A stretch of 64,000 nucleotides of DNA from an uncultured Candidatus Saccharibacteria bacterium (GTDB lineage: Bacteria; Patescibacteriota; Minisyncoccia; Phycocordibacterales; UBA12088): assembly GCA_964567265.1 (NCBI GenBank), contig CAZMLK010000001.1:523723-587722 (forward strand), written 5' to 3'. The notes beneath the pieces were generated by a model. It did no database searches. It was not told the DNA's origin and saw only the letters and a list, made by a program, of their open reading frames with translations. Both the position numbers and the translations under genes were made by a program. Numbering within the stretch: position 1 is the stretch's first letter; every line of letters starts with the position of its first letter. Below are positions 3,301 to 55,004 of this stretch, piece after piece.

Positions 3301-3609
3301 ATGAACAGGCGCGGTTTCGGGTATTGCGACAGGTGCAGTGGTGTCAGGAATGACGGGGGGCGGGAGCGTCGCAACGGGGTCCGTCTGGACCTCCTTAGGT
3401 GGAAGAGCGGGAGTCGTATCGACGACAACAGGTTCTTCCTTGCAGAATCCAAGCGGTTTCAGAATGAAGCCGAACGTCGAGCAGAAAAAACCAGGAGTGC
3501 CGCCTTCCGCAGCGGCGATCTGGGGTACCAAGAATACCGTTACGGCAAGAACGGTTGCCGTTAAACGCAAAAGCCGAGGACTGCAGGGTCCTGTACGCAT
3601 TCCTCCCAT
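370..3609 (-). CDS. Secreted tailspike-like protein (1079 aa): Sec signal peptide, Pro/Thr-rich linker, pectate-lyase-superfamily beta-helix, three GNVGIGTTxP fibre-like repeats and a C-terminal peptidase S74 intramolecular chaperone autoprocessing domain
   Basis: The N-terminus MRTGPCSPRLLRLTATVLAVTVFLVPQIAAAEG is a signal peptide. YGAVGDDSRDNYAAIMAAINAC matches the YGAxGDGxTDDTxAIQxA motif that opens pectate-lyase-fold / tailspike beta-helices, and ISIDGN / GLYIDG are beta-helix rung motifs. The C-terminal SSARFKHDIAELTPAEAADLATRLHPVSFKYNGTDEERVGLIAEEVAVV matches the endosialidase-type S74 chaperone, including the SxxxxK Ser-Lys dyad spacing (cf SDARLK). Confidence 0.8.
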   Translation of the reverse strand: MGGMRTGPCSPRLLRLTATVLAVTVFLVPQIAAAEGGTPGFFCSTFGFILKPLGFCKEEPVVVDTTPALPPKEVQTDPVATLPPPVIPDTTAPVAIPETAPVHSPAIPKPVNAPVVSSPRPAPSQAAPTYVTNVTNILQGLSESAIDAKIADAKAYATNALTVIRAGTVRAVSTTIASESTIDKATFTGDTSMQGALALSSISPSDTTNRLYNSGGTLYWNGSELGTATSSSWTASGANVYRSSGNVGIGTSSPASVLSVSGAAFFGGAAGTTTIQHSLSVLARTSLASTTGKFYDIGGAVCNVEAYGAVGDDSRDNYAAIMAAINACPIGGTVLFPMGVFRISQPITLDKPVTLQGTYAPRWYYASTPRSSIKPTTSFSGTAIVHVRDKSISGQAADNNGGRIRNISIDGNSFGTAIDGLYFEGLVRDWKVEGVDISQTSGNGFRTAQGSGSGNPRGFTVQQLSIYSPALHGVRATALTDSYLEDVLVVGGAQRGFYFTSMGETKVVSSRAVFNTLEGLYIDGASSNGGFQFTDFSTDRNDRHGIRISATGTTTISFTGLLIRRDGANDGGGSETPYAGVAIIGSASAHVAPVVIKNMTEIPGVDDDGTGTPAPSVGIRVEKASYVSVDGVLWGVDQAYSDGGGNDHFIIGEDTLKKVGYNVVSESLHNDKWIATSSNLVYAAGNVGVGTTTPTSRLHVVGTDAAASVLTIAGATSQSADYFRIKSTYAAAVGDILTVDSSGNVGIGTTTMNRKLNVADATSPGFRFTDTTNGAAMDMRVEDTQAFLGTMTNHDLRFITNQTSKAALTSGGKFGIASTSPWRFLSVTGTVGFDGLTAEVSSGSALCLSSDKEVTVNTGAQTCTVSSARFKHDIAELTPAEAADLATRLHPVSFKYNGTDEERVGLIAEEVAVVDGRLVFREEDGAPRGVRYEDIAAVLVGAFKHQQEQIASLLGSGARAAGSALQATFDTIFAKTIVVDNLQSKKIEADEVTAGKRVCIDGVCVTGEELRTLMENAGIHHAPVEPNAPAIPADIPPDEDATTTQEETVEASSTPPQEIAPVVSPPVPGQDDTASTTAQ

Positions 3610-3646
3610 GATACCAATGCACTCGAGGAGCGTCTACGCAGGAAAA

Positions 3647-3662
3647 TGCCCTCAAGAGGGAG
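3647..3662 (-). terminator. Weak hairpin (CCCTC-TTGA-GAGGG) followed by a T-rich run, downstream of the GH130 operon
   Basis: Short inverted repeat read directly from the sequence. It is the only candidate terminator between operon end 3691 and the next gene start 3609. Confidence 0.25.
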
Positions 3663-3672
3663 AGCAATATAA

Positions 3673-4665
3673 ATGAAAAAAGTCAAAATCCTAGGAAAGC
3701 TCCTTCACGAGGTCGGCAAGCTTGATGGTCGCGACGCCGACGACGGAATCCGCGCCGCCATAATAGACATACACCATATTGTCGCGGATGACCGCGCCAC
3801 AGGGGAAGACGACGTGCGGTATCTGCCCTTCATGCTCATACTGTTCCGTTGGCTCGAAGAGCGGCGACACGGTGCGGGAAAGCACCGTGGTCGGATCCTT
3901 GAGGTCGAGAAGGACCGCGCCGACGCGATACGTCTTGTTCTTCGACACGCCGTGATAAAGGAGTATCCATCCGTGCTTGGTCTTCAAGGGCGGCGCAGCG
4001 ATGCCGACCTTCTGGCTGTCCCACATGCCGGGCCGGGGTCCGATAAGCTGGATGCAGCGCGACGCCTTGTCGATATCGAAGTTCAGCGAATTCAGGAAGT
4101 CAGCGCAGATATGCGTGCCGAGGCGATGGAGGATCATGTACTTCCCTTTCACTTTCTCCGGGAGGATGCAGGTATCCTTGTCATCGATGCCGGTCGGCGT
4201 GATCACGACCGGGCGGGACCAGTTCCACTCATGGCTCACGAAATCCTGGACAGAAATGGAGGTCGCGGCGACGACAGGCGCATGCACGCCATCGTACGCC
4301 GTGTAGCACATATAGAGCGTGTCGCCGAGACGCGTGATGCGCGGATCCTCGCATCCGGAATTCCCGTTCGGGTCACCTTTCTTCATCTCGAAATCCTCCC
4401 GCGGAACGTAGATCGGCTCATCAAGGCGCGTCGTTATCGAGAGCCCGTTCTTCGAGGTCGCGAGGCCGAGCGTCGAGGTGTTGTCCTCGGACATGGCGCG
4501 GTAGACGATGTAGACCGTGCCATCGATCTCGATCGCCGCCGGATTGAACACGGCTCGCGATTCCCAGCCATGCTGCGGGATCGGCTTCAGGGTCGGATTC
4601 TTCGGATAGCGCTTCATGTACTTGAAGCGGGTCTTGGTATTCAGATTCGCGATCAGGCTTGGTAG
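3673..4665 (+). other. Long antisense ORF opposite the GH130 gene; judged non-coding
   Basis: High-GC antisense frame fully embedded in a confidently assigned CDS. Its translation is Arg/Asp/Gly-rich and low-complexity. Confidence 0.1.
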
Positions 4666-5595
4666 CTCGACCGTCGCGCGCGCGGAGGTCGTATCCGCAG
4701 CGCCATAGTAGATATCGAGATTCTTCCCGCGCACGAGCGCGCCCGACGGGAAGATCACGTTCGGGATCTGGCCGTAGTATTCATATACTTCTTCAGGAAC
4801 CAGCAGCGGTCCCGGCGTCCGGCCGAGGATCTTCCGGGGATTCTTGAGATCAAGAAGGAGCGCCTCGACGCCCCAGACCTTGTCATTCGAGAAATAATTC
4901 TGTGCATGCGAGTAGATGAGGAGCCAGCCATCCTTGGTCTTTATGGGCGGCGCGGCCACCTCGGCCTGCTCATTATCAGAACGGCGCGGATCGATGATGT
5001 GCTTCTCTTTGTTCTTCTCCCAATTCTCCCAGAATGCAGGTGACCACAAGTCCTCGATGTTCTTGCACTCGGCGAACGCCATCTTCACGGGCGGGCGGTC
5101 GGTGTCGAGCGAGAAGATCACGACGAACTTGCCGTTGACCTTCTCGGGGAAAAGCGCCATCGCTTTCGCGTTGAACGGCGTGATGAGGTGCTTCTCTTGC
5201 ACCCTCTTCAAGTCCTTCGAGATCGCGAGCGCGACCTTGATATTGTCCGGGCCGAACGGGAAGCCGCCGAGCGCGGTATAGAAAATATAATACTTGCCGC
5301 CGATCTTGGTGACACGCGGATCCTCGCAGCCGTACCGCTCCCATGCATGCTCAGGAATGATGAACTGCTCACGGTTGTCGAACTTGACCCCATCCTTCGA
5401 GGTCGCGTGCCCGATCGTGGAGAGCGCGAGATGCACGCCTTCATACTGGTCGGCGCGCGACATCGCGCGGTAGAGCACATGCAAGGTCTTCCCTTCCATG
5501 ATCGGACTCCAATTGAAAGTCGCCAGCGCCTCCCACGGATGCTCGGCAAGCGGGCGGAGGAGCGGATTGTGCGGATCTCGTTTGATGATAAACAT
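3691..5595 (-). CDS. Glycoside hydrolase family 130 protein with two complete GH130 (DUF377, 5-bladed beta-propeller) domains fused in tandem; probable beta-mannoside phosphorylase or mannosidase
   Basis: 634 aa. Both halves carry GH130 hallmarks (NPxxxxxxxWExxAxFNxAA, GxxxLLYRAxS, GCEDPRIT, YYGAAD, IYPCG-like). The second copy starts near residue 320 (KNPTLKPIPQHGWESRAVFNPAAI). Confidence 0.85.
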   Translation of the reverse strand: MFIIKRDPHNPLLRPLAEHPWEALATFNWSPIMEGKTLHVLYRAMSRADQYEGVHLALSTIGHATSKDGVKFDNREQFIIPEHAWERYGCEDPRVTKIGGKYYIFYTALGGFPFGPDNIKVALAISKDLKRVQEKHLITPFNAKAMALFPEKVNGKFVVIFSLDTDRPPVKMAFAECKNIEDLWSPAFWENWEKNKEKHIIDPRRSDNEQAEVAAPPIKTKDGWLLIYSHAQNYFSNDKVWGVEALLLDLKNPRKILGRTPGPLLVPEEVYEYYGQIPNVIFPSGALVRGKNLDIYYGAADTTSARATVELPSLIANLNTKTRFKYMKRYPKNPTLKPIPQHGWESRAVFNPAAIEIDGTVYIVYRAMSEDNTSTLGLATSKNGLSITTRLDEPIYVPREDFEMKKGDPNGNSGCEDPRITRLGDTLYMCYTAYDGVHAPVVAATSISVQDFVSHEWNWSRPVVITPTGIDDKDTCILPEKVKGKYMILHRLGTHICADFLNSLNFDIDKASRCIQLIGPRPGMWDSQKVGIAAPPLKTKHGWILLYHGVSKNKTYRVGAVLLDLKDPTTVLSRTVSPLFEPTEQYEHEGQIPHVVFPCGAVIRDNMVYVYYGGADSVVGVATIKLADLVKELS

Positions 5596-5614
5596 ATGCG
5601 TGTCGCGTTGTTAC

Positions 5615-7429
5615 TTATTTTACAACTACTTTTTCCGGCTGGAGCGATACGAGGCTGTCCTTCTTGATGTTGTCCACGAACGCATCGAGCGGCGTATGCG
5701 CGACGCAGGTCACCATGTCTGCTCCGCCATAATAGATGTACAGCTCTCCCTTGATGACCGCAGCCCCGCATGGATAAATCACTCCCCATTTGTGGCCATG
5801 GTTCTCGTACTCGGCATCCGGGACCGCGATCGGCAGGCGCGCGCGATAGAGCACCTTGGTCGGATCCTCAAGGTCAAGGATCATGGCACCCATCTTGTAG
5901 CGTCCAGGATCACGATCGTCGACGCCTTGGTAGATCACGAGCCAGCCCGCTTCCGTTTTTATCGGCGGAGGTCCGACGCCCAGCTTGCGGCTGTCCCAGA
6001 ACGACGGGCGCGGCTTGATCTTGTGTTCGCCGGTCAGCCACCGCTTCCCTTTGAATTCAAGATCTGGCACGAAGTCGATGAGCATGTTCGGGAAGATGCG
6101 ATGGAAGAGCACGTACTGCCCGTTGATCTTCTCGGGAAACAGAGCGGCATTCTTGTTGACCTGGTGCGGCCGCGAAATCAGCAAGGGTTGCTTCCACTTC
6201 CAGTTTCCTGCCTTGAAATTATTGAAATCGATCGACGTGATGGCGACGCGCGGCGCCTCCCAGCCGTTGTACGCGACGTAGGTCATGTACACCTTGCCGT
6301 CGATGAGCGTGATCCGCGGATCCTCGCAGCCGCCCCAGCCGCCGCCCGAGGTGTATTCTTGCGTGTGCTGCCACGGGAGGGTTTCCGTACCCTCAGAAGG
6401 CGTCCTGGCTGCATATATAGGATAGGTAAGGCGGTCCGTAAACGAGAGGCCGTCAACCGACGTCGCGTAGCCAACCGTCGACATCCCGTCGTGCCCGATG
6501 GCGCGATAGAGGAGATGCACCTGCTCGCCATCGAAAAGCGCCGCAGGATTGAAGGTCGCGACTGATTCCCAGTGGCTGTCCGCATCCGGACTGAGGACCG
6601 GATTGAGATGGTGCGGCTTCTTGAGGTACGCATCGCCGACCGCGAGCGGATGCTTGAATGGCTCCGGGATCGCGACGGTGTGTATCTCTTTGGCTGCATC
6701 AATCCAGTAGAGTCGGATATCTTCGCCGATGAGGACCGCGCCGAGTGCCTCCGCGATCGTGTCCTTCATGTGTTCCTCGAAAAGGAACGACTCGCCGCTC
6801 CAGATGAGACGCTTCGGATCATCGGAAGCGAAGAGGAATCCTTCGATACGGAGAAGTGTCCCTCCCGCATCGGCCTTCGAGCGGTCCATGAGCACGAGGA
6901 TGCCGGCCGGCGTCGCGAGCGCTCCCCAAATCTTCCCGCCGACGATGCTTGTCCGCGTCTTCTTCCATTTCTTGAAATCCTTGGTTTCCGCGATGGTGAG
7001 GGTATCATCGCCGATGTAGAGCGCGTGGTGATCATGGGCGAAGATGCCCGGCGCCAGCACTGCGGAAGACACGTTTTCCGCGATCTTCCCTTTCACGCAC
7101 CACGAAGACAGGTCTTTCGAGATGGACCCGACAAGCTCGGACTTCTTCCCTTTCGTACGGACGTATGATGCGAAGGCGCCTTCCGGGACCGGAGTCACAT
7201 GCATGTGCGAGAGCGCGCTCACATCCTCAAGCGAACCGCGATCCGTGAGGAGCCGCAGCTTCTTCCGTGGCCGATCGAAGCGCACGCCTTCGCCACTCTT
7301 CTGGAGGAAGACGGCGACATCACCCTTCTTGTCAGTCTCGCGATATACGAGGAGGGCGCTTCGCCCATGTTGGCCGACGCCAAGGGGCACGTTCCCGATC
7401 GCCAGTTGTTTCCCCTTCTTCACAGGCAT
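5615..7429 (-). CDS. GH130-family protein (604 aa) with a degenerate N-terminal GH130-like half and an intact C-terminal GH130 catalytic domain
   Basis: The C-terminal 330 aa carry HLNPVLSPDADSHWESVATFNPAAL, LLYRAIGHDG, GCEDPRITLIDGKVYMTYVAYNG, IYYGGADM. The N-terminal 270 aa retain only faint GH130 patterns (ALLVYRETDKKGDVAVFLQKSGEGVRFD). A 20 bp gap separates it from the upstream gene. Confidence 0.8.
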   Translation of the reverse strand: MPVKKGKQLAIGNVPLGVGQHGRSALLVYRETDKKGDVAVFLQKSGEGVRFDRPRKKLRLLTDRGSLEDVSALSHMHVTPVPEGAFASYVRTKGKKSELVGSISKDLSSWCVKGKIAENVSSAVLAPGIFAHDHHALYIGDDTLTIAETKDFKKWKKTRTSIVGGKIWGALATPAGILVLMDRSKADAGGTLLRIEGFLFASDDPKRLIWSGESFLFEEHMKDTIAEALGAVLIGEDIRLYWIDAAKEIHTVAIPEPFKHPLAVGDAYLKKPHHLNPVLSPDADSHWESVATFNPAALFDGEQVHLLYRAIGHDGMSTVGYATSVDGLSFTDRLTYPIYAARTPSEGTETLPWQHTQEYTSGGGWGGCEDPRITLIDGKVYMTYVAYNGWEAPRVAITSIDFNNFKAGNWKWKQPLLISRPHQVNKNAALFPEKINGQYVLFHRIFPNMLIDFVPDLEFKGKRWLTGEHKIKPRPSFWDSRKLGVGPPPIKTEAGWLVIYQGVDDRDPGRYKMGAMILDLEDPTKVLYRARLPIAVPDAEYENHGHKWGVIYPCGAAVIKGELYIYYGGADMVTCVAHTPLDAFVDNIKKDSLVSLQPEKVVVK

Positions 7430-38318: not shown

Positions 38319-39395
38319 CTATGAGAGGGGCTTCTCGGTCTGGATCGAGAGAACGAAGCCAAATGAGTTCACCACCGCCGGATAGCGTGCCCCTATACGG
38401 AGCTTCCTCCACGCATTTGGTGGCATGCTTCGCGAGACATCTTCCCCGTCGGCACCTCGGAATACCGCCGTGTACGTCTCGACGCGATGATCATCGCTAA
38501 TGCGAAGCGTCGGCGTCGGAACGAACACCGGCCATTTTGGATTGAAATCTTGTGCCTTTGCGGTAAGTGAACGATCCAATACCCACCGCATGACGTAATA
38601 CTCGGCGAAGCGATCAAATACCGGAACAGATTTATACTTGATCACTTTCTTCGGACCATAGACAGGTTCCGTGCAGAGCGTGACTTTCTTGAACCCGTTC
38701 TGGAGATTCCGTTCGCCGCAGTTACTTCCCGGAACATCGCGATGGCCGACGATCACCGATATTGTCTCAGTACCGTCTTCTACCTGCCGGAAACTGCGCC
38801 GCTTGTCGTACTGACGCGTGATCGTGGCGTCGCTGGGAAGCTGGTCAACCCATTCTTCCTTGTCGACCTTCTGGTACCGTTCAACATTGAGCGAGCGGTA
38901 CCATTCGACGCTCGCGAGCATCAGCGTCGTATCGGTCGTCTTCCAAAAGAAGAAGTAACCCAGGGTGAGTGCCGCCGCCACGGAAAGTGAGATAATTGCA
39001 GGAATCACCCATGTATTTCGGCTCGGGGTCTTCTCTGCTACATGGTCTGGGGCCCTCCTCCCATCAACTTCCCAGACTTTTACAAGCGTCGGCTTGTGCT
39101 TCGGGTCACCGAGTTTCTCGATCCCTTCCACATATCCGCAGCCAGGGCAGTGTTCTTCCTCTCCTTCTTTCTTGAGGTTCCGATTCGCGGTGCCGCATCT
39201 TTGACAAATCCAGAGTGCGCCTTCATCCGCTTGCGCGATGAGTGTGTCGTCGGTGACCACAACATCACCTTCGGATGCATCAGTGAAGACGACATGCTCG
39301 TCACGCGGACGCCCGCAGACACATTGCGAGACCCGCCCTTTATTTACGGTTCCGCATCCGCACGTCCACTCCATTTCAACGAGGACTTCTGTCAT
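38319..39395 (-). CDS. Membrane protein with an N-terminal cytoplasmic double zinc ribbon, one TM helix and a ~210 aa extracytoplasmic domain
   Basis: CGCGTVNKGRVSQCVCG and CQRCGTANRNLKKEGEEEHCPGCG are two C4 ribbons. A TM helix (WVIPAIISLSVAAALTLGYFFFW) is followed by a Trp/Tyr-rich domain. Confidence 0.6.
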   Translation of the reverse strand: MTEVLVEMEWTCGCGTVNKGRVSQCVCGRPRDEHVVFTDASEGDVVVTDDTLIAQADEGALWICQRCGTANRNLKKEGEEEHCPGCGYVEGIEKLGDPKHKPTLVKVWEVDGRRAPDHVAEKTPSRNTWVIPAIISLSVAAALTLGYFFFWKTTDTTLMLASVEWYRSLNVERYQKVDKEEWVDQLPSDATITRQYDKRRSFRQVEDGTETISVIVGHRDVPGSNCGERNLQNGFKKVTLCTEPVYGPKKVIKYKSVPVFDRFAEYYVMRWVLDRSLTAKAQDFNPKWPVFVPTPTLRISDDHRVETYTAVFRGADGEDVSRSMPPNAWRKLRIGARYPAVVNSFGFVLSIQTEKPLS

Positions 39396-44201: not shown

Positions 44202-45926
44202 ATGTCTCGTTTGAACGATGATGTTGGACTCTTGCCGATCGATCCGATCGCGCGTTTTCGCGACGCGGCCGGGCGTGTCGGTTTTGAGCTCAGCGATATC
44301 GAAATCGCAAGCCTGGGAATCCAAAAATCTACCGGCGTTCTTGCGTCGGCGGATGATTTCCTTGAAGGCAAAGTAACCCCCTCTGAACGCGCGACGGTTA
44401 ACAGAAATCTCCTCGAGGCCGCGCGCATGCTCGATGCCGGCAATGACGGCATCGGCTGGCTAGCCGGCTCTGAGCGGAAAGGGCCGAAGGGCTCGAATGT
44501 GTATCCACCGAAAGGAAAGGAAGTTCACCTGAGCGGCGGCGCAGATAGTCAGCCGCCCCCGGCCTCGAAACCTCCGACAGATACCACCGCACTTGCGGCG
44601 GCGCTCGAAAAGGCCCGGCAGGCGCAGGTTCCTCCAGAACCTGCGCCTGCTCCCCCGACAATCGTGGCGGCTCCCGCAACTGCCGTGAAGGACGACGAGC
44701 CAGGATCCTTGGAGGCAGCAGTTCTCCGATTCACGATGCCTGGCTCGAAAATCGTCGAGATTTCAGCAAATCCAGACGATTGGCCTCGAACCCTTCATGC
44801 GACTGGGCATGTCCCGCATTCCGCAGTCATGCTCAATCCAAACCAACCGCGACAATTCGTCGATGACGAATTCGTCGGGGATCTCGCGGCCAGCCTGACT
44901 GAGGGCAGCACATGTCCTCCAATCGTCGTCTGCGTGCGTTCAACTGAAGAACGCGAGGAATCTAATCCAGATGTCCTGTATCGCACCATCGCCGGCGAGC
45001 ACCGGTGGATCGCGCACGAGCTGGCTCAGATCCCGTTGATCGAGATCACGGTTCGCGAGCCGGCGAGCCCGCAGGAAGAATTCCTTGCGGCGCTCATCGA
45101 CAACAACACCTCTCCGCTCACGGATGTTGACCGCGCGCTTGCGGTCGCGAAGGTTGCTGCAGATTTCAATCTCAATTCTGTCGCAGCGATCGCCAAAAAG
45201 GTCGGGTACGACCAGCCGCTCACGGCAGCGCTCATGCATATCGCCTCCCTTCCAGACGAAGTGCATGCGTTCATGCATCCCGGACGGAAGACGGCGGAAC
45301 GGCTCAAGCGCCAGCCGGCAGTCGCGCTCGCGAAATTCACGCTCATCCCCAGCATCAAAGTACAGCTGGCAAAAAGAATGCTCGCCGAAGTCGGCATGAA
45401 GAATGCGGGAACGCAGGTGCGCTGGCTCCACCGCGAGGCGGAGCAATACGGTACCGGAGGCGATGGTGCGTCACGCCGCCGTTCCCCGAAGGAAGCATTG
45501 GCGCTCATCAACAGCCTGCTGTCCGCGATCAACAATCGACGCGGGGTCCTCGGCGAATTCAAGATGTCCATACCGGACTGGCTCGAAGTGATTCAACAGT
45601 CCTACGGTGTCGACCATGTGCTCGCGGAACTTCGTGAAGCATCTGAGCGGCTCCAGCGGTTTGCCACAATCATCGAGACCTCGACGAATGGCGCCGAGGC
45701 TTCAAGGCGGGAAACGCTTGCCCGTGTCCTCCCCGACACCATTCAAGTCGATTACTTGGACGATGCCGGCAAGGTACGGAGGGGAGAATTCGTCGATCAT
45801 CGCACCTATCTGCGACTCCATGACCAAAAGAAGCTGACCTGGAGAAAATTCGGCTGGAAGCGGCCTTCCGATCAGCCTCCGATTGGATCCGTGCGAGACA
45901 TGCTTTCCGCGAACAAGCTCCAGTAA
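44202..45926 (+). CDS. Standalone ParB/sulfiredoxin-fold (ParB N-terminal nuclease-like domain) protein, 574 aa, with no adjacent parA
   Basis: VLYRTIAGEHRWIAHELAQIPLIEITV matches ParB box II (YxLIAGERRxRAAxxAGxxxIP) with His replacing the first Arg. A GGAAAGGA RBS precedes the ATG. The N-terminal 100 aa and C-terminal 240 aa helical regions are unassigned. Confidence 0.55.
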   Translation: MSRLNDDVGLLPIDPIARFRDAAGRVGFELSDIEIASLGIQKSTGVLASADDFLEGKVTPSERATVNRNLLEAARMLDAGNDGIGWLAGSERKGPKGSNVYPPKGKEVHLSGGADSQPPPASKPPTDTTALAAALEKARQAQVPPEPAPAPPTIVAAPATAVKDDEPGSLEAAVLRFTMPGSKIVEISANPDDWPRTLHATGHVPHSAVMLNPNQPRQFVDDEFVGDLAASLTEGSTCPPIVVCVRSTEEREESNPDVLYRTIAGEHRWIAHELAQIPLIEITVREPASPQEEFLAALIDNNTSPLTDVDRALAVAKVAADFNLNSVAAIAKKVGYDQPLTAALMHIASLPDEVHAFMHPGRKTAERLKRQPAVALAKFTLIPSIKVQLAKRMLAEVGMKNAGTQVRWLHREAEQYGTGGDGASRRRSPKEALALINSLLSAINNRRGVLGEFKMSIPDWLEVIQQSYGVDHVLAELREASERLQRFATIIETSTNGAEASRRETLARVLPDTIQVDYLDDAGKVRRGEFVDHRTYLRLHDQKKLTWRKFGWKRPSDQPPIGSVRDMLSANKLQ

Positions 45927-50113: not shown

Positions 50114-52408
50114 TTACTTGGCGACTGCGACCGCTTCCTCGAACTTGACCGACAGGAGCTTGGAGATGCCGTCAGAGCCCATGGTGACGCCGTAGAGGAT
50201 GCCTGCACGGCTCATGGTCTCGCGATTGTGGGTGATCAGAATGAGTTGGGATTTCTTCGAGAGGCTCTCGATCATGTCGCCGTAGCGGCGGCTGTTGGCT
50301 TCATCGAGCGCGGCGTCGGTCTCGTCGAGTATCAAAAACGGTGGCGGATTCACCTGTGACATGGCGAAGATGAGCGCAATCGAGGTGAGCGCCCGCTCCC
50401 CTCCTGAGAGCATCGCGAGTCCCCGGACGCGCTTGTTGGGGAGATTCACCGACACATCCACGCCCTCTTCCGTATCACCTTCTTCCATCTCGGATTCATC
50501 GCCCGCCCCATCGAGATCGAGCGCGGCACCTTTCTTCCGCTTCTCCCCCTCAACCAGGGTGAGCCCGCCTGAGCCGCCGCCGAACATAATCATGAAAAAA
50601 TTGTTGAATTCGCGCGAGATAAGGTCGATGCCCTCGTGGAACTTCGCATCAAGCTTCGTCTCGAGTTCGACGATCAGCTCCTTGAGCGATGCAGCCGACT
50701 TCTCGAGGTCGGCAAGCTCGCGTGTGAGGAATTCATCGCGCTCCTTCACCTCCTTGTACTCGCGCATGATGTCCTCGGCCGACGCGCCACCGAGCTCTTC
50801 GAGCCGGATCTTCAGCTTCTCGAGCGTGCGGCGGCGCCCCTCCTGCACGTCGCGCTTCTCGGAGACGATGCTCTCCGTACTCGCCTCGTCGCCATTGTCG
50901 CCAAGAATGCGGATCTCCTTATACCCCCCGACATATTCGCCGATGAGTGCTGCCGCCTCCGAGAGCTCGCGCTCGAATTCGCCGCGATGTCGCACTACTT
51001 GTTCTTCCTGCATGCGAAGCGTCTGGAGTACTGTACGCACTTCGGCTTCCGAAGTCATGATCTCGAAGACGGCGCGTTCGGCCTCGCGGCTCTTGTCCTT
51101 CTTGCCTTCGATCTCCTGGCGGAGAGCACGGTACTGCGATTCAAGCTCGCGTTCCGCGGATTCCGCTTCCTTGATGCTCGAGGCGATGCGAGCGTGCTTG
51201 TCACGGAGTTCCTCGACGAGGCCCTCATTCTCCACGCGAACACGCTCCGTCTTCGCCGTCGCGATATGCGCGATGAAATCACGGAGCCGGGTGAGCGCAT
51301 TCTTGAGGGTCGTGCGGATGTGGGATGGATCGACTGATTCTTCCGCGCTCCGGAGCTCGCCTTCGATCTCATCGGCAAGCGAGCGGACATCGCGGAGCGC
51401 GACGACCTCGTCACCGCCTGTCTCGATCGCCTTCTCTTCGCGCTCCTTGCGGCGCTCTTCGGCGACGATCTCGCCTTCGAGGCGGCCAAGGTCACGTGAG
51501 AGCGTATCCTTCACGCTCCGCGCTTCACGGAGACTGGTCTCGATACGAAGCACGTCGTCGCTCTTCGCGTCATGGCCGTCTGACTCCGAAAGCGCCTGTC
51601 GCGCCTCTCGGAGCCGCTCCTCGAGCTCGCGCATCTCGCGCTCCGGCTTCTCCTTCTCGCGCGCCAATGATTCGCTCGCGTAGGCGAGATACAGCTCCTC
51701 TCGCTTCAGGTACTCCTGATATGACTGCGCGAGCTCTTCGCGGAGCAAGACCGCCTTCTGGAGCTTTTCAACTTGGCGCTCGAGGAAGCGGAGATGCGGC
51801 GCGTTCTCCTTGCGGAGCGCTTCCACCTGCTTCCGGTTCTCTTCGGTCTTCTCGAGCTTCTTCCGGCTCTCGTCTTTCTTGTATTGGAACACGCGAAGCC
51901 CGAGCGCGTCCTCGATCATCGCACGGCGCTCCTTCGGATTCGCGGTGAGCACGCGATCCGCTTCGCCCTGAGAGATGATGTGGTGACCGGATGAGCCGAC
52001 GTTGGCGCCGGCGAGGAGCTCGATGACATCGCGGAGACGCACCTTGGTGCCGCTGATCAGATATTCGTTCTCGCCGTCGCGATGCACGACACGCTCGATC
52101 GAGACTTCGTCATAATCAACCGGGAGCAGGCGCTTGCCGTTGATGCTCGGGTTGTCGAAGACGACCTTCACGCCCGCGCGGTTCATGCGCGCGACTGATG
52201 CCGATCCGTTGAAGATGAGATCCTCGCCGCGCTTCCCGCGCATCGACTTGATGGACTGCTCTCCGAGCACGAAGCGGAATGCTTCCGCGACGTTCGATTT
52301 CCCGGAACCATTCGGTCCCACAATAGAAGTAATCGCCGAGCTGAATTCCAGGTCGGTTTTCTTGGCGAACGACTTAAACCCCGAGACTTCGAGGCTCTTC
52401 AAATGCAT
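50114..52408 (-). CDS. smc: SMC-like ABC-type ATPase (764 aa) with an SMC head and long coiled coil but no recognisable hinge domain
   Basis: N-terminal Walker A (GPNGSGKSN). C-terminal signature LSGGERALTSIALIFA, Walker B ILDETDAALD and D-loop. Continuous heptad-rich region from residues ~170-600. No GxxGxxxDLI hinge. Start chosen at MHLKSLEV (52408), preceded by TACACT 7 nt upstream. Conserved rnc-smc neighbourhood. Confidence 0.85.
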   Translation of the reverse strand: MHLKSLEVSGFKSFAKKTDLEFSSAITSIVGPNGSGKSNVAEAFRFVLGEQSIKSMRGKRGEDLIFNGSASVARMNRAGVKVVFDNPSINGKRLLPVDYDEVSIERVVHRDGENEYLISGTKVRLRDVIELLAGANVGSSGHHIISQGEADRVLTANPKERRAMIEDALGLRVFQYKKDESRKKLEKTEENRKQVEALRKENAPHLRFLERQVEKLQKAVLLREELAQSYQEYLKREELYLAYASESLAREKEKPEREMRELEERLREARQALSESDGHDAKSDDVLRIETSLREARSVKDTLSRDLGRLEGEIVAEERRKEREEKAIETGGDEVVALRDVRSLADEIEGELRSAEESVDPSHIRTTLKNALTRLRDFIAHIATAKTERVRVENEGLVEELRDKHARIASSIKEAESAERELESQYRALRQEIEGKKDKSREAERAVFEIMTSEAEVRTVLQTLRMQEEQVVRHRGEFERELSEAAALIGEYVGGYKEIRILGDNGDEASTESIVSEKRDVQEGRRRTLEKLKIRLEELGGASAEDIMREYKEVKERDEFLTRELADLEKSAASLKELIVELETKLDAKFHEGIDLISREFNNFFMIMFGGGSGGLTLVEGEKRKKGAALDLDGAGDESEMEEGDTEEGVDVSVNLPNKRVRGLAMLSGGERALTSIALIFAMSQVNPPPFLILDETDAALDEANSRRYGDMIESLSKKSQLILITHNRETMSRAGILYGVTMGSDGISKLLSVKFEEAVAVAK

Positions 52409-52474
52409 AGGAAATAGTGTATCATGCCGCTCATGAAGGGCTGAAAAAGCAGGTGAAAAAGTGCAGCAAAAGAT

Positions 52475-52501
52475 AAAGGGCGCCCCGGAGGGGCGCCCTT
52501 T
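52475..52501. terminator. Bidirectional intrinsic terminator (AAAGGGCGCCCC-gga-GGGGCGCCCTTT)
   Basis: Perfect 9 bp GC stem flanked by A3 and T3. Placed to terminate the minus-strand ORF 52537..52806. Confidence 0.75.
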
Positions 52502-52536
52502 CATATGTCATTCGAACGAACTAATGAGTGTGCGCT

Positions 52537-52806
52537 TCAGTATGCCCGCGCGCGCCTAGTCGGACAGCCGCGACCCCTTCCGTGACGGCGATCTTTCCGC
52601 GGTGGCTTCTCGCCAGGCAGGAGCTGCGGCGCTTTCGGGCTGCCAGACCCGTTGGTGATCTTGCCCGGAAGGCTTCCAAGAAGGCGCTCCTCCCGACGCC
52701 TGAGCTGGCCCAGGGAAAGCGATGGAGCGAGATCGCTCGAATCCCTGCCGCTACGAGCCGGTGCTGCAACCTCGACCGCACGATCAGGATAATTCCGATG
52801 TGCCAC
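52537..52806 (-). CDS. Small highly basic hypothetical protein (89 aa), GTG start
   Basis: AAGGAG RBS 5 nt upstream of the GTG, and a terminator 35 nt downstream. The sequence is Arg/Pro/Gly-rich and disordered-looking. Confidence 0.3.
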   Translation of the reverse strand: MAHRNYPDRAVEVAAPARSGRDSSDLAPSLSLGQLRRREERLLGSLPGKITNGSGSPKAPQLLPGEKPPRKDRRHGRGRGCPTRRARAY

Positions 52807-53221
52807 GATGACTCCTTATCCCAAAGTTGATACCGCGAAATAGCATCCCATATTCGGGCACGATCGTCAAAATACTGGAATGCAAAGCGGCGGCCCGATC
52901 AGGGCCGCCGCCACGTGCACAGATTCAAATCAGCGTCAGGGACGGCCTTGCTGCGGTCGCCGCATCGTCAGCAAGTCACCGAATACAAGTACTCGTTCTT
53001 GGTGTGGCGGCTGCACCTCCATTTCGACATGGGCGTAGGTTCCTACACCAGATGCATCCACATGTCGCCAGGTCATCAACGGCACGACCCGACCGCTTGA
53101 ATCACGGACATGGCCAGTGATTTCGCCTCGCGGATAATCAAGCGTCTGGCCCTCGATCTTTTGTTTCAAGACAAAGCCTCCGGCTGCTGTTTCCCCGGGG
53201 TATCCGGGGTCCAAAATGAAT

Positions 53222-53926
53222 CTACCACGCCTTCTTTTCGAGCGCCACGCGGGCTGCCGACTGCTCGGCTTCCTGCTTCGACTTCCCTTCGCCTTCAGCG
53301 ACGAGCTCGGTACCGAGGTAGACGCCGACGGTGAATTTCTTGTCGTGGTCAGGGCCGCTCTCTGAGAGGATCTTGTAGGTCGGCGTGATCGAGACGCGCT
53401 CCTGCGCTTCTTCCTGGAGATGGCTCTTGTCATCCTGCCAGAGCTTCTTCGAGACGATCTCGTCGGTCAGCGGGAAAATATTCTGCCCGATGAACTTCTC
53501 AGCGGCATCGTATCCCTGATCGAGATAGATCGCCCCGACGACCGATTCGAAGGTGTTCGCGAGGATGTACTGGCGGGCGCGGCCGGTGTCCTTCGCTTCG
53601 CCGCGCGACAGCATGAGGAACTCGTTCATGCCGAGCTTCTGGGCGACTATCGAGATGGTGTTCGTATTCACGAGCGCCGCGCGGTAGGCAGTGAGCTCAC
53701 CCTCGTTGTCGCCAGGGAACTTGTCGAAGAGGAACCGGGTCACGACCAATTCCAAAACCGCGTCCCCGAGGAATTCAAGACGCTCATTGTGGGAAACGGT
53801 CGCTCCGCGGTGCTCGTTGAGATACGAGCGATGCGTGAATGCTTGTTCGATCAACGCCTTGTTGTTGAATGGAAATCCAATGCGGGCGGTGAAACTATCG
53901 ATATCTTTCTTGTCCATACCGGTCAT
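53222..53926 (-). CDS. rnc: Ribonuclease III
   Basis: ERLEFLGDAVLELVV (RNase III signature) and a C-terminal dsRBD (KSKQEAEQSAARVAL). Confidence 0.95.
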   Translation of the reverse strand: MTGMDKKDIDSFTARIGFPFNNKALIEQAFTHRSYLNEHRGATVSHNERLEFLGDAVLELVVTRFLFDKFPGDNEGELTAYRAALVNTNTISIVAQKLGMNEFLMLSRGEAKDTGRARQYILANTFESVVGAIYLDQGYDAAEKFIGQNIFPLTDEIVSKKLWQDDKSHLQEEAQERVSITPTYKILSESGPDHDKKFTVGVYLGTELVAEGEGKSKQEAEQSAARVALEKKAW

Positions 53927-54074: not shown

Positions 54075-55004
54075 TTACTGTTTCTGCAACAGCAGATTGA
54101 TGGCCTTGGTAATAATGGGGAGGATATCGCGATAGAAGTTGAGGTCGAGGATGCTTGAGAGCTTGAACCAGCGGGCGTCATCGAGACCTCCTTTTTCTTC
54201 AAGGGTGATTTCAGAGAATTCTGATTCAGCGAGGAAGTAGATGACGCGCTTACGCTTCTTGCCGTCGCCAGGCGTCGAAGCGACGTACTCGTTCTCGCCG
54301 AGCTTGTCCTTGACGGTGATGTCGAGATTGATCTCTTCCTTGATCTCGCGGACGACGCCGTCTTCTTCGGAGATGCCGTCCTCGATGCCACCCTTCGGCA
54401 GCGTCCAGTGGCCGAAGACATCGTGGACGAGCGCGACATACACATCATCGCCTTCGCGAGCGAAGACGACGGCGCCGACTTTGCGCTCGATCGGAAGCTT
54501 GTCGTACGGGATCTCCTCGCGCTTCTTGTGCTTCCCTTGCGGGTGCGGCTTCTTGGAGGTTTCTTCTTTGCCGGGCTCGCCGAGCTCCTTGTACACGGCC
54601 CCGAGGACGCCGTTCACGAAGCGGCCGCTCGACTCGCCGCCGAAATTCTTCCCGAGCTCGATTGCCTCGTTTATGGCGACCTTCGCAGGCACTTCCTTGC
54701 GATCCGCGAACAGGAGCTCGTAGAGGCCGAGGCGGAGGATGTTGCGATCAACCGGCGCGATCTTGTCGATCGGCCATTCAGGAGCAGCCTTCTCGATGAT
54801 GAGATCGAGATCCTTCTGCTTCTCCCTGACTCCCTGGAGCAGATTCTTCATGTACGAAAAATCGCCCGTACCGGGAGCGAATTCATCAATATTGCGCTGG
54901 AGCACCTCTTCGACGTCGATATTCCCCTGGCCGTCCTTTGTAGTGACGTCCCATTCAAAGAGCGTTTGGAGGACTATTGACCTCGATAGGTGCCTGTTTG
55001 CCAT
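54075..55004 (-). CDS. nusB: Fusion protein: N-terminal transcription antitermination factor NusB domain plus C-terminal Nudix hydrolase domain
   Basis: Residues 1-140 (RSIVLQTLFEWDV...DRNILRLGLYELLF...VAINEAIELGKNFGGESSGRFVNGVL) are NusB. Residues ~170-309 carry the Nudix box GGIEDGISEEDGVVREIKEEINL (Gx5Ex7REUxEExGU). Confidence 0.85.
   Translation of the reverse strand: MANRHLSRSIVLQTLFEWDVTTKDGQGNIDVEEVLQRNIDEFAPGTGDFSYMKNLLQGVREKQKDLDLIIEKAAPEWPIDKIAPVDRNILRLGLYELLFADRKEVPAKVAINEAIELGKNFGGESSGRFVNGVLGAVYKELGEPGKEETSKKPHPQGKHKKREEIPYDKLPIERKVGAVVFAREGDDVYVALVHDVFGHWTLPKGGIEDGISEEDGVVREIKEEINLDITVKDKLGENEYVASTPGDGKKRKRVIYFLAESEFSEITLEEKGGLDDARWFKLSSILDLNFYRDILPIITKAINLLLQKQ

What the first reader, a model, noticed from the sequence alone, without database searches (positions are those of the whole stretch)
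50114..52408. Hinge-less, short SMC encoded at the canonical rnc-smc position
The protein has bona fide SMC head motifs (Walker A, LSGGE signature, Walker B) and ~430 aa of coiled coil. It is only ~764 aa and shows no hinge-domain signature, only a short ETGGDE apex. Canonical Smc is ~1150-1200 aa with a globular hinge essential for dimerisation and DNA entrapment. This architecture resembles RecN or Lamassu LmuB-type SMC-like proteins, yet it sits in the conserved housekeeping rnc-smc context.
Basis: partly seen in the sequence, partly recalled or inferred. Interest (0 to 1): 0.55.

Follow-up and report, generated by a model that had tools for sequence, protein, structure and literature searches.

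The report
Short hinge-less Smc of Paceibacteria
This gene encodes the bacterium's chromosome-organising Smc ATPase in a naturally shortened form with no "hinge" domain; a whole class of ultra-small (Paceibacteria/CPR) bacteria shares this form, so it is a natural test of what the supposedly essential hinge is for.

Summary
Window 50114-52408 (-) is an intact 764-aa gene. Its two ends form a complete Smc ATPase head, and residues 172-609 are all-helical. It is the Smc orthologue: NCBIfam SMC_prok_B scores 548 bits against 56 or less for Rad50, RecN and RecF, and the rnc-smc synteny is kept. No hinge is detectable by Pfam in it or in 55 aligned relatives, while the same scan finds the hinge in canonical Smc controls.

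It is not a frameshift or an assembly artefact. All 501 relatives collected are 584-795 aa (Paceibacterota, Vogel-, Wolfe-, Jorgensen-, Azam- and Taylorbacteria).

Coevolution analysis and AlphaFold show one fold-back coiled coil of about 186 residues per strand. The apex lies at residues ~357-361.

In 49 sister clusters, the segment that forms this tip in the window protein (residues ~336-390) is replaced by a single CxxCGQ motif resembling a Rad50 zinc hook. This suggests the apex is the dimerisation site, but dimerisation by the helical tip is inferred, not shown.

ScpA and ScpB were not found in the DNA available, so that question stays open.

Closest precedents are engineered Smc-zinc-hook chimeras (2017) and a 2025 report of hinge-less SMC in ocean metagenomes. 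I rate this a new variant of a known kind.

The parts
50114..52408 (-). smc coding sequence, 764 aa plus stop; the short, hinge-less form
   Evidence: Uninterrupted ORF. Pfam SMC_N 1.3e-65 spanning residues 2-749. TIGR02168 SMC_prok_B 547.6 bits. Best PDB match is the B. subtilis Smc head, 4.7e-85.
51896..52408 (-). N-terminal half of the ATPase head (residues 1-171), with Walker A at 31-38 (52295-52318) and the Q-loop at 146-148
   Evidence: Motif positions; invariant in 56 relatives. 44% identical to a canonical Smc over residues 1-215.
51338..51895 (-). N-terminal strand of the coiled-coil arm (residues 172-357), including the highly conserved neck (172-229)
   Evidence: AlphaFold helices 172-275, 281-329 and 338-356. 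Antiparallel coevolution ladder with the C-strand. Neck conservation is 0.69, against 0.42-0.44 in the distal arm.
51473..51490 (-). LGRLEG motif (residues 307-312); G308 is invariant in all alignments made here, and E311/G312 are invariant or nearly so in the helical-tip subfamily. It lies just before the variable apex module
   Evidence: The motif precedes the CxxC hook by 21-34 residues in most hook-type relatives where it was located.
51407..51424 (-). It is actually a poorly conserved one-sided break at the base of the tip module
   Evidence: AlphaFold loop 330-337. Low conservation and gaps. Coevolution rejects it as the turn.
51236..51421 (-). Apex (tip) module, residues 330-391: loop, helix 338-356, turn 357-360, helix 361-385, loop. 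It stands where a canonical Smc has its hinge
   Evidence: The tip helices have more hydrophobic columns (0.26 and 0.32) than the arms (0.18-0.22). Residues ~336-390 are replaced by a CxxCGQ loop in hook-type relatives.
51326..51340 (-). Actual turn of the fold-back coiled coil (residues 357-361)
   Evidence: Median (i+j)/2 of 38 distal ladder pairs is 358.5. Close-in pairs 357-364, 356-368 and 352-368.
50582..51328 (-). C-terminal strand of the arm (residues 361-609), including the joint insertion (residues ~486-543, window 50780-50953) and the C-side neck
   Evidence: AlphaFold helices 361-435, 439-498, 519-539 and 544-609. The ladder sum shifts from ~715 to ~760 across the joint. Foldseek best hit is the Smc head plus coiled coil plus joint, 5xei.
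50117..50581 (-). C-terminal half of the ATPase head (residues 610-764): signature LSGGE 667-671 (50396-50410), Walker B/D-loop 691-702, H-loop H727. It carries a disordered charged insertion at 622-645
   Evidence: 38% identical to a canonical Smc over residues 526-758.
52475..52501 (-). Terminator-like hairpin 67 nt upstream of the smc start codon. It contains the spurious upstream ATG
   Evidence: 12-bp stem, 9 G-C pairs, T-rich tail; sequence shown.
53222..53926 (-). rnc (RNase III), the conserved upstream neighbour
   Evidence: rnc lies directly upstream of the short smc in 17 of 22 Patescibacteria loci, and near smc in 42 of 60 canonical loci.

Best explanation
This is the cell's orthologous Smc (bacterial condensin ATPase). 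In the Paceibacteria lineage it has lost the globular hinge and about 40% of each arm.

Shown: each chain folds back on itself into a coiled coil of about 186 residues per strand. It keeps the canonical ATPase head, neck and joint, and it ends in a small two-helix tip (residues 338-385) instead of a hinge.

Inferred: two chains are joined at this tip, probably by packing two hairpins into a helical bundle. The resulting V- or rod-shaped dimer would have arms of about 28 nm, against about 47-49 nm in B. subtilis. ATP-driven head engagement and a kleisin bound at the conserved neck and cap would then act on DNA as in Smc-ScpAB. On this reading the hinge serves here only as a dimerisation device, and an unrelated module can replace it.
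For: Orthology:
- TIGR02168 scores 547.6 bits, against 56 or less for Rad50, RecN and RecF.
- The top PDB hits are B. subtilis, Geobacillus and Pyrococcus Smc heads.
- The protein is 44% and 38% identical to a canonical Smc over residues 1-215 and 526-758.
- Foldseek's best hit is the Smc head plus joint, 5xei.
- The dnaE-rnhB-nusB/nudix-rnc-smc order is conserved.

Loss of the hinge:
- No hinge by Pfam, with a positive control.
- The AlphaFold model is all-helical between the heads.

Lineage-wide:
- All 501 relatives are 584-795 aa, with identity to the window protein down to 33%.

Single fold-back arm:
- 92 of the 257 strongest coevolving pairs lie on two antiparallel ladders, where 10% would be expected (p about 1e-27).
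- The apex is at residue 358.5.

Apex as the dimerisation site:
- 49 of 381 related clusters replace the segment that forms the tip (residues ~336-390) with a single C-x-x-C-G-Q motif at the turn. In 35 of the 49 these are the only two cysteines in the protein.
- The hook-type gene sits in the same locus, followed by RNase R-S16-KhpA-TrmD-RpoB.
- AlphaFold puts the CxxC in the apical loop 322-343.
- One member gives a weak Rad50_zn_hook hit exactly there (E 0.034).
- A single CxxC per chain can complete a four-cysteine zinc site only between two chains. This is established Rad50 knowledge, recalled from memory (Hopfner et al. 2002, Nature 418:562).
- The window protein's tip helices carry extra conserved hydrophobic positions (a, d and e/g; 0.26-0.32 of columns against 0.18-0.22 in the arms).

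Plausibility:
- In B. subtilis the hinge can be replaced by the Pyrococcus Rad50 zinc hook, and certain shortened arms remain functional (PMC5344682).

Kleisin partner:
- Neck conservation is 0.62-0.69, close to head level at 0.75. This fits a retained binding partner.
Against: - Nothing here demonstrates dimerisation of the cysteine-free tip. Its sequence is the least conserved part of the protein (0.29-0.32), and only monomers could be modelled.
- The hook argument is by analogy with relatives, not with this protein, which has no cysteine at all.
- Hook types did not form one clade in a crude NJ tree.
- ScpA and ScpB were not found in the window, in 86 loci (about 1.3 Mb) around smc genes, or in 10 kb beyond one end of the window. 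The rest of the 622-kb contig could not be read, so the kleisin partner and the absence of a second, canonical SMC complex are both untested.
- The protein falls just below the TIGR02168 trusted cut-off (547.6 against 567.35).
Confidence: 0.6

Rival explanations
1. This is the orthologous hinge-less Smc, but the apex does not join two chains. Two chains meet only at the ATP-engaged heads and through a bridging kleisin. The arms are free projections that serve as levers or partner-binding rods, and the tip is just a cap.
For: The tip sequence is poorly conserved. No dimer could be modelled. SMC-like ATPases without apical dimerisation exist (RecF; general knowledge). Faint coevolving pairs between N-strand residues 302-326 and tip helix 336-358 (sums 646-667, z 2.9-4.9) could mean the tip folds back on its own arm.
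Against: A single CxxC at the exact apex in 49 sister clusters is hard to explain without pairing of two chains. The hydrophobic pattern of the tip is conserved and denser than in the arms. In B. subtilis a distal dimerisation module was retained in all functional engineered variants (PMC5344682).
Confidence: 0.22
2. The chain does not fold back. Two chains pair antiparallel along their whole length, giving a rod with a composite head at each end. This is the old alternative model for SMC proteins.
For: Coevolution cannot tell intra-chain from inter-chain antiparallel contacts.
Against: The ladder runs continuously into the turn, with pairs only 7-16 residues apart (357-364, 356-368, 352-368), as expected for a hairpin. 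AlphaFold folds the chain back with a composite head (pTM 0.52). That model superposes on crystal structures of the Smc head plus joint, which are intramolecular.
Confidence: 0.05
3. This is an accessory SMC-like protein (RecN-, Rad50/SbcC-, Lamassu LmuB- or MADS mad3-like, acting in repair or defence). It coexists with a canonical Smc encoded elsewhere in the genome.
For: Hinge-less architecture is typical of those families. PADLOC models mad3 (204 bits) and LmuB (84 bits) match the head. The whole genome could not be inspected.
Against: The Smc model scores 2.7 to 14 times higher than any of these. The gene occupies the orthologous rnc-smc slot in 17 of 22 lineage loci. No nuclease, LmuA or other mad genes are adjacent. 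No protein of 900 aa or more appeared among 501 relatives from the lineage.
Confidence: 0.06
4. Artefact: a frameshift, an in-frame assembly collapse or a decaying pseudogene of a full-length smc.
For: Metagenome-derived sequence. The score is just under the curated Smc cut-off.
Against: The same length and architecture occur in hundreds of independent clusters from many samples and assemblers, down to 33% identity. The catalytic motifs are invariant. The arm shows coevolution, which means selection for pairing.
Confidence: 0.01

Closest known systems
Bacterial Smc of the Smc-ScpAB complex (B. subtilis type; NCBIfam TIGR02168)
   Same: Head, neck and joint are homologous: 44% and 38% identity, with all ATPase motifs. 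The coiled coil folds back. The rnc-smc gene order is shared.
   Different: There is no hinge domain. Each arm strand has about 186 residues, against about 330-340 (the 341-aa main mode in PMC5344682). The score is just below the family cut-off. The ScpAB partners are unverified.
Engineered B. subtilis Smc(Zh) and Mini-Smc (Burmann et al. 2017, Mol Cell 65:861, PMC5344682)
   Same: Smc with the hinge replaced by an unrelated dimerisation module, and Smc with shortened arms. The hook-type relatives are natural counterparts of Smc(Zh).
   Different: Those are laboratory constructs. Here the replacement is natural, fixed in a whole lineage, and in this genome it is a cysteine-free helical tip rather than a zinc hook.
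Rad50/SbcC zinc hook
   Same: A fold-back coiled coil ending in an apical dimerisation element instead of a hinge. Relatives carry CxxCGQ at the apex, for example CPVCGQ in P0183.
   Different: The window protein has no cysteine. Rad50 models score 56 bits or less against cut-offs of 700 or more. No Mre11/SbcD gene is adjacent.
RecN
   Same: An SMC-like ATPase without a hinge. By general knowledge it dimerises through the ends of its coiled coils.
   Different: The recN model scores 39 bits against a cut-off of 408. RecN is about 550 aa with much shorter coils, and it lacks the Smc joint and the rnc-smc context.
"Hinge-less" SMC cluster from Tara Oceans metagenomes (Environ Microbiome 2025, PMC12153180)
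   Same: Environmental Smc homologues whose AlphaFold models lack the hinge and have no CXXC motif. The authors argue they are divergent SMC rather than Rad50.
   Different: That cluster was assigned to Actinomycetes and described only at the level of overall fold. The paper gives no arm anatomy, apex module, hook variant or link to CPR. Whether it overlaps this family is unknown; some members of this family do occur in Tara data (P0035, P0052, P0382).
MukB/MksB (JetC)
   Same: Bacterial condensin-type SMC proteins with a reduced, non-canonical hinge.
   Different: They still have a globular hinge, and their head sequences are unrelated. The Pfam MukB N-terminal model matched only 2 of 56 relatives, at E 0.016.

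Membership tests
Smc (bacterial condensin ATPase, TIGR02168 / Smc-ScpAB) | Split ABC-type head with Walker A, Q-loop, signature LSGGE, Walker B, D-loop and H-loop | tested here: met
   the core residues of these motifs are invariant in 56 relatives.
Smc (bacterial condensin ATPase, TIGR02168 / Smc-ScpAB) | Best-scoring SMC-superfamily model is Smc, not RecN, Rad50, RecF or MukB | tested here: met
   SMC_prok_B 547.6 bits; SMC_prok_A 288.6; Rad50 56; RecF 40; RecN 39.
Smc (bacterial condensin ATPase, TIGR02168 / Smc-ScpAB) | Reaches the curated equivalog cut-off of TIGR02168 | tested here: not met
   547.6 against 567.35 bits. The shortfall is consistent with the missing hinge and distal-arm columns.
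Smc (bacterial condensin ATPase, TIGR02168 / Smc-ScpAB) | Long fold-back antiparallel coiled coil with a head-proximal joint | tested here: met
   AlphaFold; Foldseek hit to 5xei, head plus coiled coil plus joint; coevolution ladders with a register shift at the joint.
Smc (bacterial condensin ATPase, TIGR02168 / Smc-ScpAB) | Globular hinge dimerisation domain (Pfam PF06470) | tested here: not met
   Absent at E<=1. Not among the families matched by 2 or more of 56 relatives. The model is all-helical. Detected in canonical controls at 1e-24 and 6e-30.
Smc (bacterial condensin ATPase, TIGR02168 / Smc-ScpAB) | Orthologous genomic position next to rnc | tested here: met
   rnc is upstream on the same strand. 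This holds in 17 of 22 lineage loci and 42 of 60 canonical loci.
Smc (bacterial condensin ATPase, TIGR02168 / Smc-ScpAB) | Kleisin ScpA and ScpB partners encoded in the genome | not testable with these tools
   None was found in the window or in 86 loci around smc, using ScpA and ScpB queries validated against the PDB. scpAB is not normally near smc, and the rest of the genome could not be read.
RecN | Match to the recN equivalog model; about 550 aa with a short coiled coil | tested here: not met
   TIGR00634 scores 39.2 bits against a cut-off of 407.85. The protein has 438 helical residues between its head halves.
Rad50/SbcC | CxxC zinc hook at the coiled-coil apex, and a match to Rad50/SbcC models | tested here: not met
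   The window protein has no cysteine. Rad50 models score 56 bits or less against cut-offs of 700 or more. A hook-like CxxCGQ is present in 49 related clusters, but those are otherwise Smc.
Lamassu LmuB / other defence SMC-like ATPases (PADLOC) | Best match to the defence model, with the partner effector genes adjacent | tested here: not met
   LmuB 84 bits and mad3 204 bits (head only), against Smc 548 bits. The neighbours are rnc, nusB-nudix, PPIase and RNase R, not LmuA or mad genes.

The most novel reading that the evidence does not exclude
An entire class of bacteria runs its housekeeping condensin without a hinge. The hinge has been replaced by small, interchangeable apical dimerisation modules: a helical hairpin in this genome and a Rad50-like zinc hook in sister lineages. 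The arms are roughly 60% of canonical length. If so, hinge DNA binding, the hinge gate and hinge-to-head folding are all dispensable for a natural Smc motor, and nature had already made the Smc-zinc-hook chimera that was later built in the laboratory.
Probability: 0.45. Interest if true: 0.8.

Novelty: new variant of a known kind. Interest (0 to 1): 0.62.

Why it matters
Current models of SMC action give the hinge several roles: dimerisation, DNA binding, DNA entry, and contact with the heads through a folded elbow. A housekeeping Smc that has lost the hinge across a whole class of bacteria, and that shows two or more alternative apex modules at the same position, is a natural deletion-and-replacement series. 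It suggests that distal dimerisation is the only hinge function selection has kept here.

It also supplies compact (~700-760 aa) natural SMC motors for structural and single-molecule work. It gives an independent check on the arm-length rules derived from engineered B. subtilis Smc.

Practically, these proteins fall just under the curated Smc threshold and are often named only "AAA family ATPase" in databases. Smc could therefore be wrongly scored as absent in CPR genomes.

Tried and rejected
**ScpA/ScpB**
- Pfam scans of 20 mid-size window ORFs found none.
- A regex for the ScpA N-terminal GPLDLL-type motif found none in six-frame translations of the window and 82 loci.
- phmmer with B. subtilis and S. 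pneumoniae ScpA, B. subtilis ScpB and consensus sequences found none in any ORF of 86 loci and the window. These sequences were written from memory; the B. subtilis ScpA and ScpB were then validated against PDB ScpA and ScpB at 2e-63 and 3e-61.
- One 10-kb extension beyond the window start found none. The look-up at the other end found no record.
- Supplementary tables of a Parcubacteria genomics paper did not mention scpA or scpB, and no paper linked ScpA or Smc biology to Patescibacteria.
- Conclusion: this is uninformative rather than negative.

**Small ORFs between rnc and smc as hidden partners**
- The two ORFs seen in a relative (177 and 81 aa) have no counterpart in the window.
- The spacer is not conserved even in a relative whose Smc is 71% identical.

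**RNA genes and other checks**
- RNA genes: Rfam and tRNA scans of the whole window were empty.
- Defence-system reading (LmuB, mad3): rejected on scores and neighbours.
- ETGGDE as apex: rejected by coevolution.

**Left open**
- Whether the hook variant is monophyletic. A crude NJ tree on head and neck columns split it into two or more groups, which is too weak to interpret.
- Whether the 2025 Tara "hinge-less SMC" cluster is this family. The paper's text and supplements give no sequences.
Full report
**What is there**

The minus-strand ORF 50114-52408 encodes 764 aa without interruption, and its codon-position GC is typical of the real genes in this window (GC3 0.76). A longer reading from an ATG at 52504 is spurious. 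That ATG lies inside a strong terminator-like hairpin (52501..52475, 12-bp stem, T-rich tail), and every relative starts at M-x-LK. RNase III (rnc, 53222-53926) lies upstream on the same strand. Further upstream are a nusB-Nudix fusion, rnhB and dnaE.

**It is Smc**

- Pfam SMC_N matches at 1.3e-65, with the two halves of the domain at the two ends of the protein (residues 2-749).
- NCBIfam ranks SMC_prok_B first at 547.6 bits. Rad50, RecF and RecN reach only 39-56 bits.
- The best solved structures are B. subtilis, Geobacillus and Pyrococcus Smc heads, up to 4.7e-85.
The head, neck and joint are therefore retained. About 310 residues here stand where the canonical protein has about 556.
- Walker A, Q-loop, signature, Walker B, D-loop and H-loop are invariant in 56 relatives.
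- The gene order dnaE-rnhB-(rpmF)-nusB/nudix-rnc-smc recurs in relatives. rnc is directly upstream of the short smc in 17 of 22 lineage loci, and near smc in 42 of 60 canonical loci from other phyla. This is the orthologous slot.

**No hinge**

SMC_hinge (PF06470) is absent at E<=1 in this protein. It is not among the families matched by two or more of 56 relatives. The same scan finds it at 1e-24 and 6e-30 in two canonical Smc proteins from the same genome scan, so the test is sensitive enough. The AlphaFold model (56-sequence alignment, pLDDT 78.7) is helical from 172 to 609 with only short breaks and no alpha/beta domain. Its best structural match is an Smc head with coiled coil and joint, 5xei, at E 4e-22.

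**Not an artefact**

- The 120 best clusters at 90% identity are all 741-793 aa, with 100% coverage and 53-71% identity to the window protein. None has a hinge annotation.
- The 150 best representatives at 50% identity are 598-782 aa, down to 41% identity.
- A scan of species-representative genomes found the short form in 20 Patescibacteria MAGs, down to 33% identity. The next-best hits were canonical long Smc of Chloroflexota and Firmicutes.
- A search seeded from the most distant short form returned 120 more clusters of 584-773 aa.
- Named sources include Wolfebacteria, Jorgensenbacteria, Parcubacteria, Minisyncoccia and Paceibacterota.
- Of 501 proteins collected, none is 900 aa or longer.

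**Arm anatomy**

I ran a mean-field direct-coupling analysis on 327 cysteine-free relatives. The strongest pairs form two antiparallel ladders:
- i+j of about 753-765 between 174-240 and 519-589, which is the neck up to the joint;
- i+j of about 710-725 between 230-357 and 361-485, which is distal to the joint.

Of the 257 pairs with z>3.6, 92 lie on these ladders, where 10% would be expected (p about 1e-27). At z>5.5 the fraction is 71%. The distal ladder runs uninterrupted into the turn, with pairs 352-368, 356-368 and 357-364. This gives an apex at residue 358.5 (IQR 356-362).

The ladder expected if ETGGDE were the apex has 2 strong pairs, against 20 for the real one. ETGGDE (329-334) is therefore one of two matched, poorly conserved breaks (330-337 and 386-391). 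These breaks set off a terminal two-helix tip (338-356 and 361-385).

Each arm has about 186 residues on the N-strand. At about 0.148 nm per residue (the standard coiled-coil rise) that is roughly 28 nm, against 47-49 nm for B. subtilis Smc (PMC5344682).

**A variable apex module**

Among the relatives, 49 of 381 clusters carry a single C-x-x-C-G-Q motif (consensus KxCPYCGQ; CPVCGQ in P0183), in most cases 21-34 residues after the LGRLEG motif. In 35 of the 49 these are the only two cysteines in the protein. In the alignment this short loop replaces window residues ~336-390, and these proteins are correspondingly shorter (median 710 against 752 aa).

AlphaFold places the motif in the apical loop 322-343 between the two arm strands. 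One member gives a sub-threshold Rad50_zn_hook hit exactly there (E 0.034). The hook-type gene has the same downstream neighbours as the window's smc: RNase R, S16, KhpA, TrmD, RpoB and RpoC. It is therefore the same gene with a different apex. Sources name these organisms Vogelbacteria and Paceibacterota.

A third group (Wolfe- and Jorgensenbacteria) mostly lacks both the LGRLEG motif and the hook.

**How it most likely works**

Shown:
- it is the orthologue of Smc;
- it has a complete ATPase head;
- the neck and joint are conserved (neck conservation 0.62-0.69 against 0.75 for the head);
- the arm folds back;
- there is no hinge;
- the apex is modular.

Inferred:
- The apex joins two chains. 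One CxxC per chain can build a zinc site only between two chains, as in Rad50 (recalled from Hopfner et al. 2002). The helical tip sits at the same place.
- The tip has a denser conserved hydrophobic pattern (0.26-0.32 of columns) than the plain arms (0.18-0.22). It has hydrophobic a, d and e/g positions (336, 338, 341, 344, 348, 352; 361, 364, 367, 368, 371, 375, 378, 379). This is what a four-helix bundle of two hairpins would need.
- Experiments in B. subtilis make this plausible. [quoted passage not shown]
- The rest of the cycle (ATP-driven head engagement, a kleisin bridging neck and cap) is assumed by homology.

**What remains open**

ScpA and ScpB were not found in any DNA I could read, but that DNA is almost all next to smc, where scpAB is not expected. 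The rest of the 622-kb contig was out of reach. For the same reason a second SMC complex in the genome cannot be excluded. Dimerisation of the cysteine-free tip is untested, and the tip sequence is the least conserved part of the protein.

**Comparison and novelty**

The open-access library holds no paper linking Smc, hinge or zinc hook to CPR/Patescibacteria. One 2025 study reports a "hinge-less" SMC cluster in Tara Oceans data. It assigns the cluster to Actinomycetes and describes only the overall fold (PMC12153180). Some members of the present family also occur in Tara data, so overlap is possible but could not be checked.

The window's protein is a typical member of a very large, unremarked family, often labelled only "AAA family ATPase". 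I rate it a new variant of a known kind. It is of real interest to SMC specialists, mainly because of the lineage-wide hinge loss and the natural hook/hairpin exchange. It is not a new kind of system.

Noticed in passing
relatives P0139, P0178, P0180, P0183, P0215, P0221, P0272-P0338 (49 clusters); locus L085 987-3095: A subfamily of the same short Smc carries a single CxxCGQ motif (consensus KxCPYCGQ) at the arm apex. In 35 of the 49 these are the only two cysteines in the protein. The motif replaces window residues ~336-390, the segment that forms the helical tip. It looks like a natural Smc with a Rad50-type zinc hook, and I found no description of it in the literature.
   Followed up: yes
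relatives P0383-P0501; loci L012-L017: A third, more distant group of short Smc (median 725 aa; Wolfebacteria, Jorgensenbacteria, Parcubacteria LiPW_41) mostly lacks both the LGRLEG motif and the hook. Its apex was not analysed.
   Followed up: partly
window 52409-53221 (-), hairpin 52475-52501: An 813-bp spacer separates rnc from smc and ends in a strong terminator-like hairpin 67 nt before the smc start. The spacer is not conserved in a relative whose Smc is 71% identical (L084). It holds no Rfam family. It contains a possible ORF of about 95 aa right after rnc (within 52936-53220).
   Followed up: partly
window 44202-45926 (+): A 574-aa protein has a ParB/Spo0J-type core at residues 205-366 (TIGR00180 58.4 bits against a cut-off of 58.45; Pfam ParB_N 3.7e-09). 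It is flanked by extensions of about 200 aa on each side. It lies about 4 kb downstream of smc and is not found near smc in any relative. It could be the Smc-loading ParB or something else.
   Followed up: partly
window 50474-50545 (-), Smc residues 622-645: The C-terminal head half has a charged, disordered insertion (KRKKGAALDLDGAGDESEMEEGDTEEG, pLDDT<50). B. subtilis Smc has no counterpart. It is present with variable length across the family.
   Followed up: no
Smc residues 176-218 against 444-490 (window ~50939-51883): A faint extra coevolution ladder (i+j about 655-666, about 10 pairs, z 2.9-5.8) links the N-side neck to the C-strand beyond the joint, offset by about 55 residues from the main register. 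It could be noise, an alternative register, or contacts between two staggered arms.
   Followed up: no
window 54075-55004 (-): NusB is fused to a C-terminal Nudix hydrolase domain (309 aa). The fusion is conserved in the same position in most related loci.
   Followed up: partly
window 38319-39395 (-): A 358-aa protein with a Cys-rich N-terminus (CGCG...CVCG) and no Pfam or NCBIfam match. It sits between trmD and rpoB. An unannotated gene occupies the same slot in relatives (346 aa in L001, 230 aa in L085).
   Followed up: no
window 370-7429 (-) and locus L083 11987-20817: A carbohydrate-active gene cluster that is unusual for a small CPR genome. It contains two GH130 phosphorylase-like genes, a 1079-aa pectate-lyase-fold/Peptidase_S74 protein, two GH26-like genes and a glycosyltransferase.
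   Followed up: no
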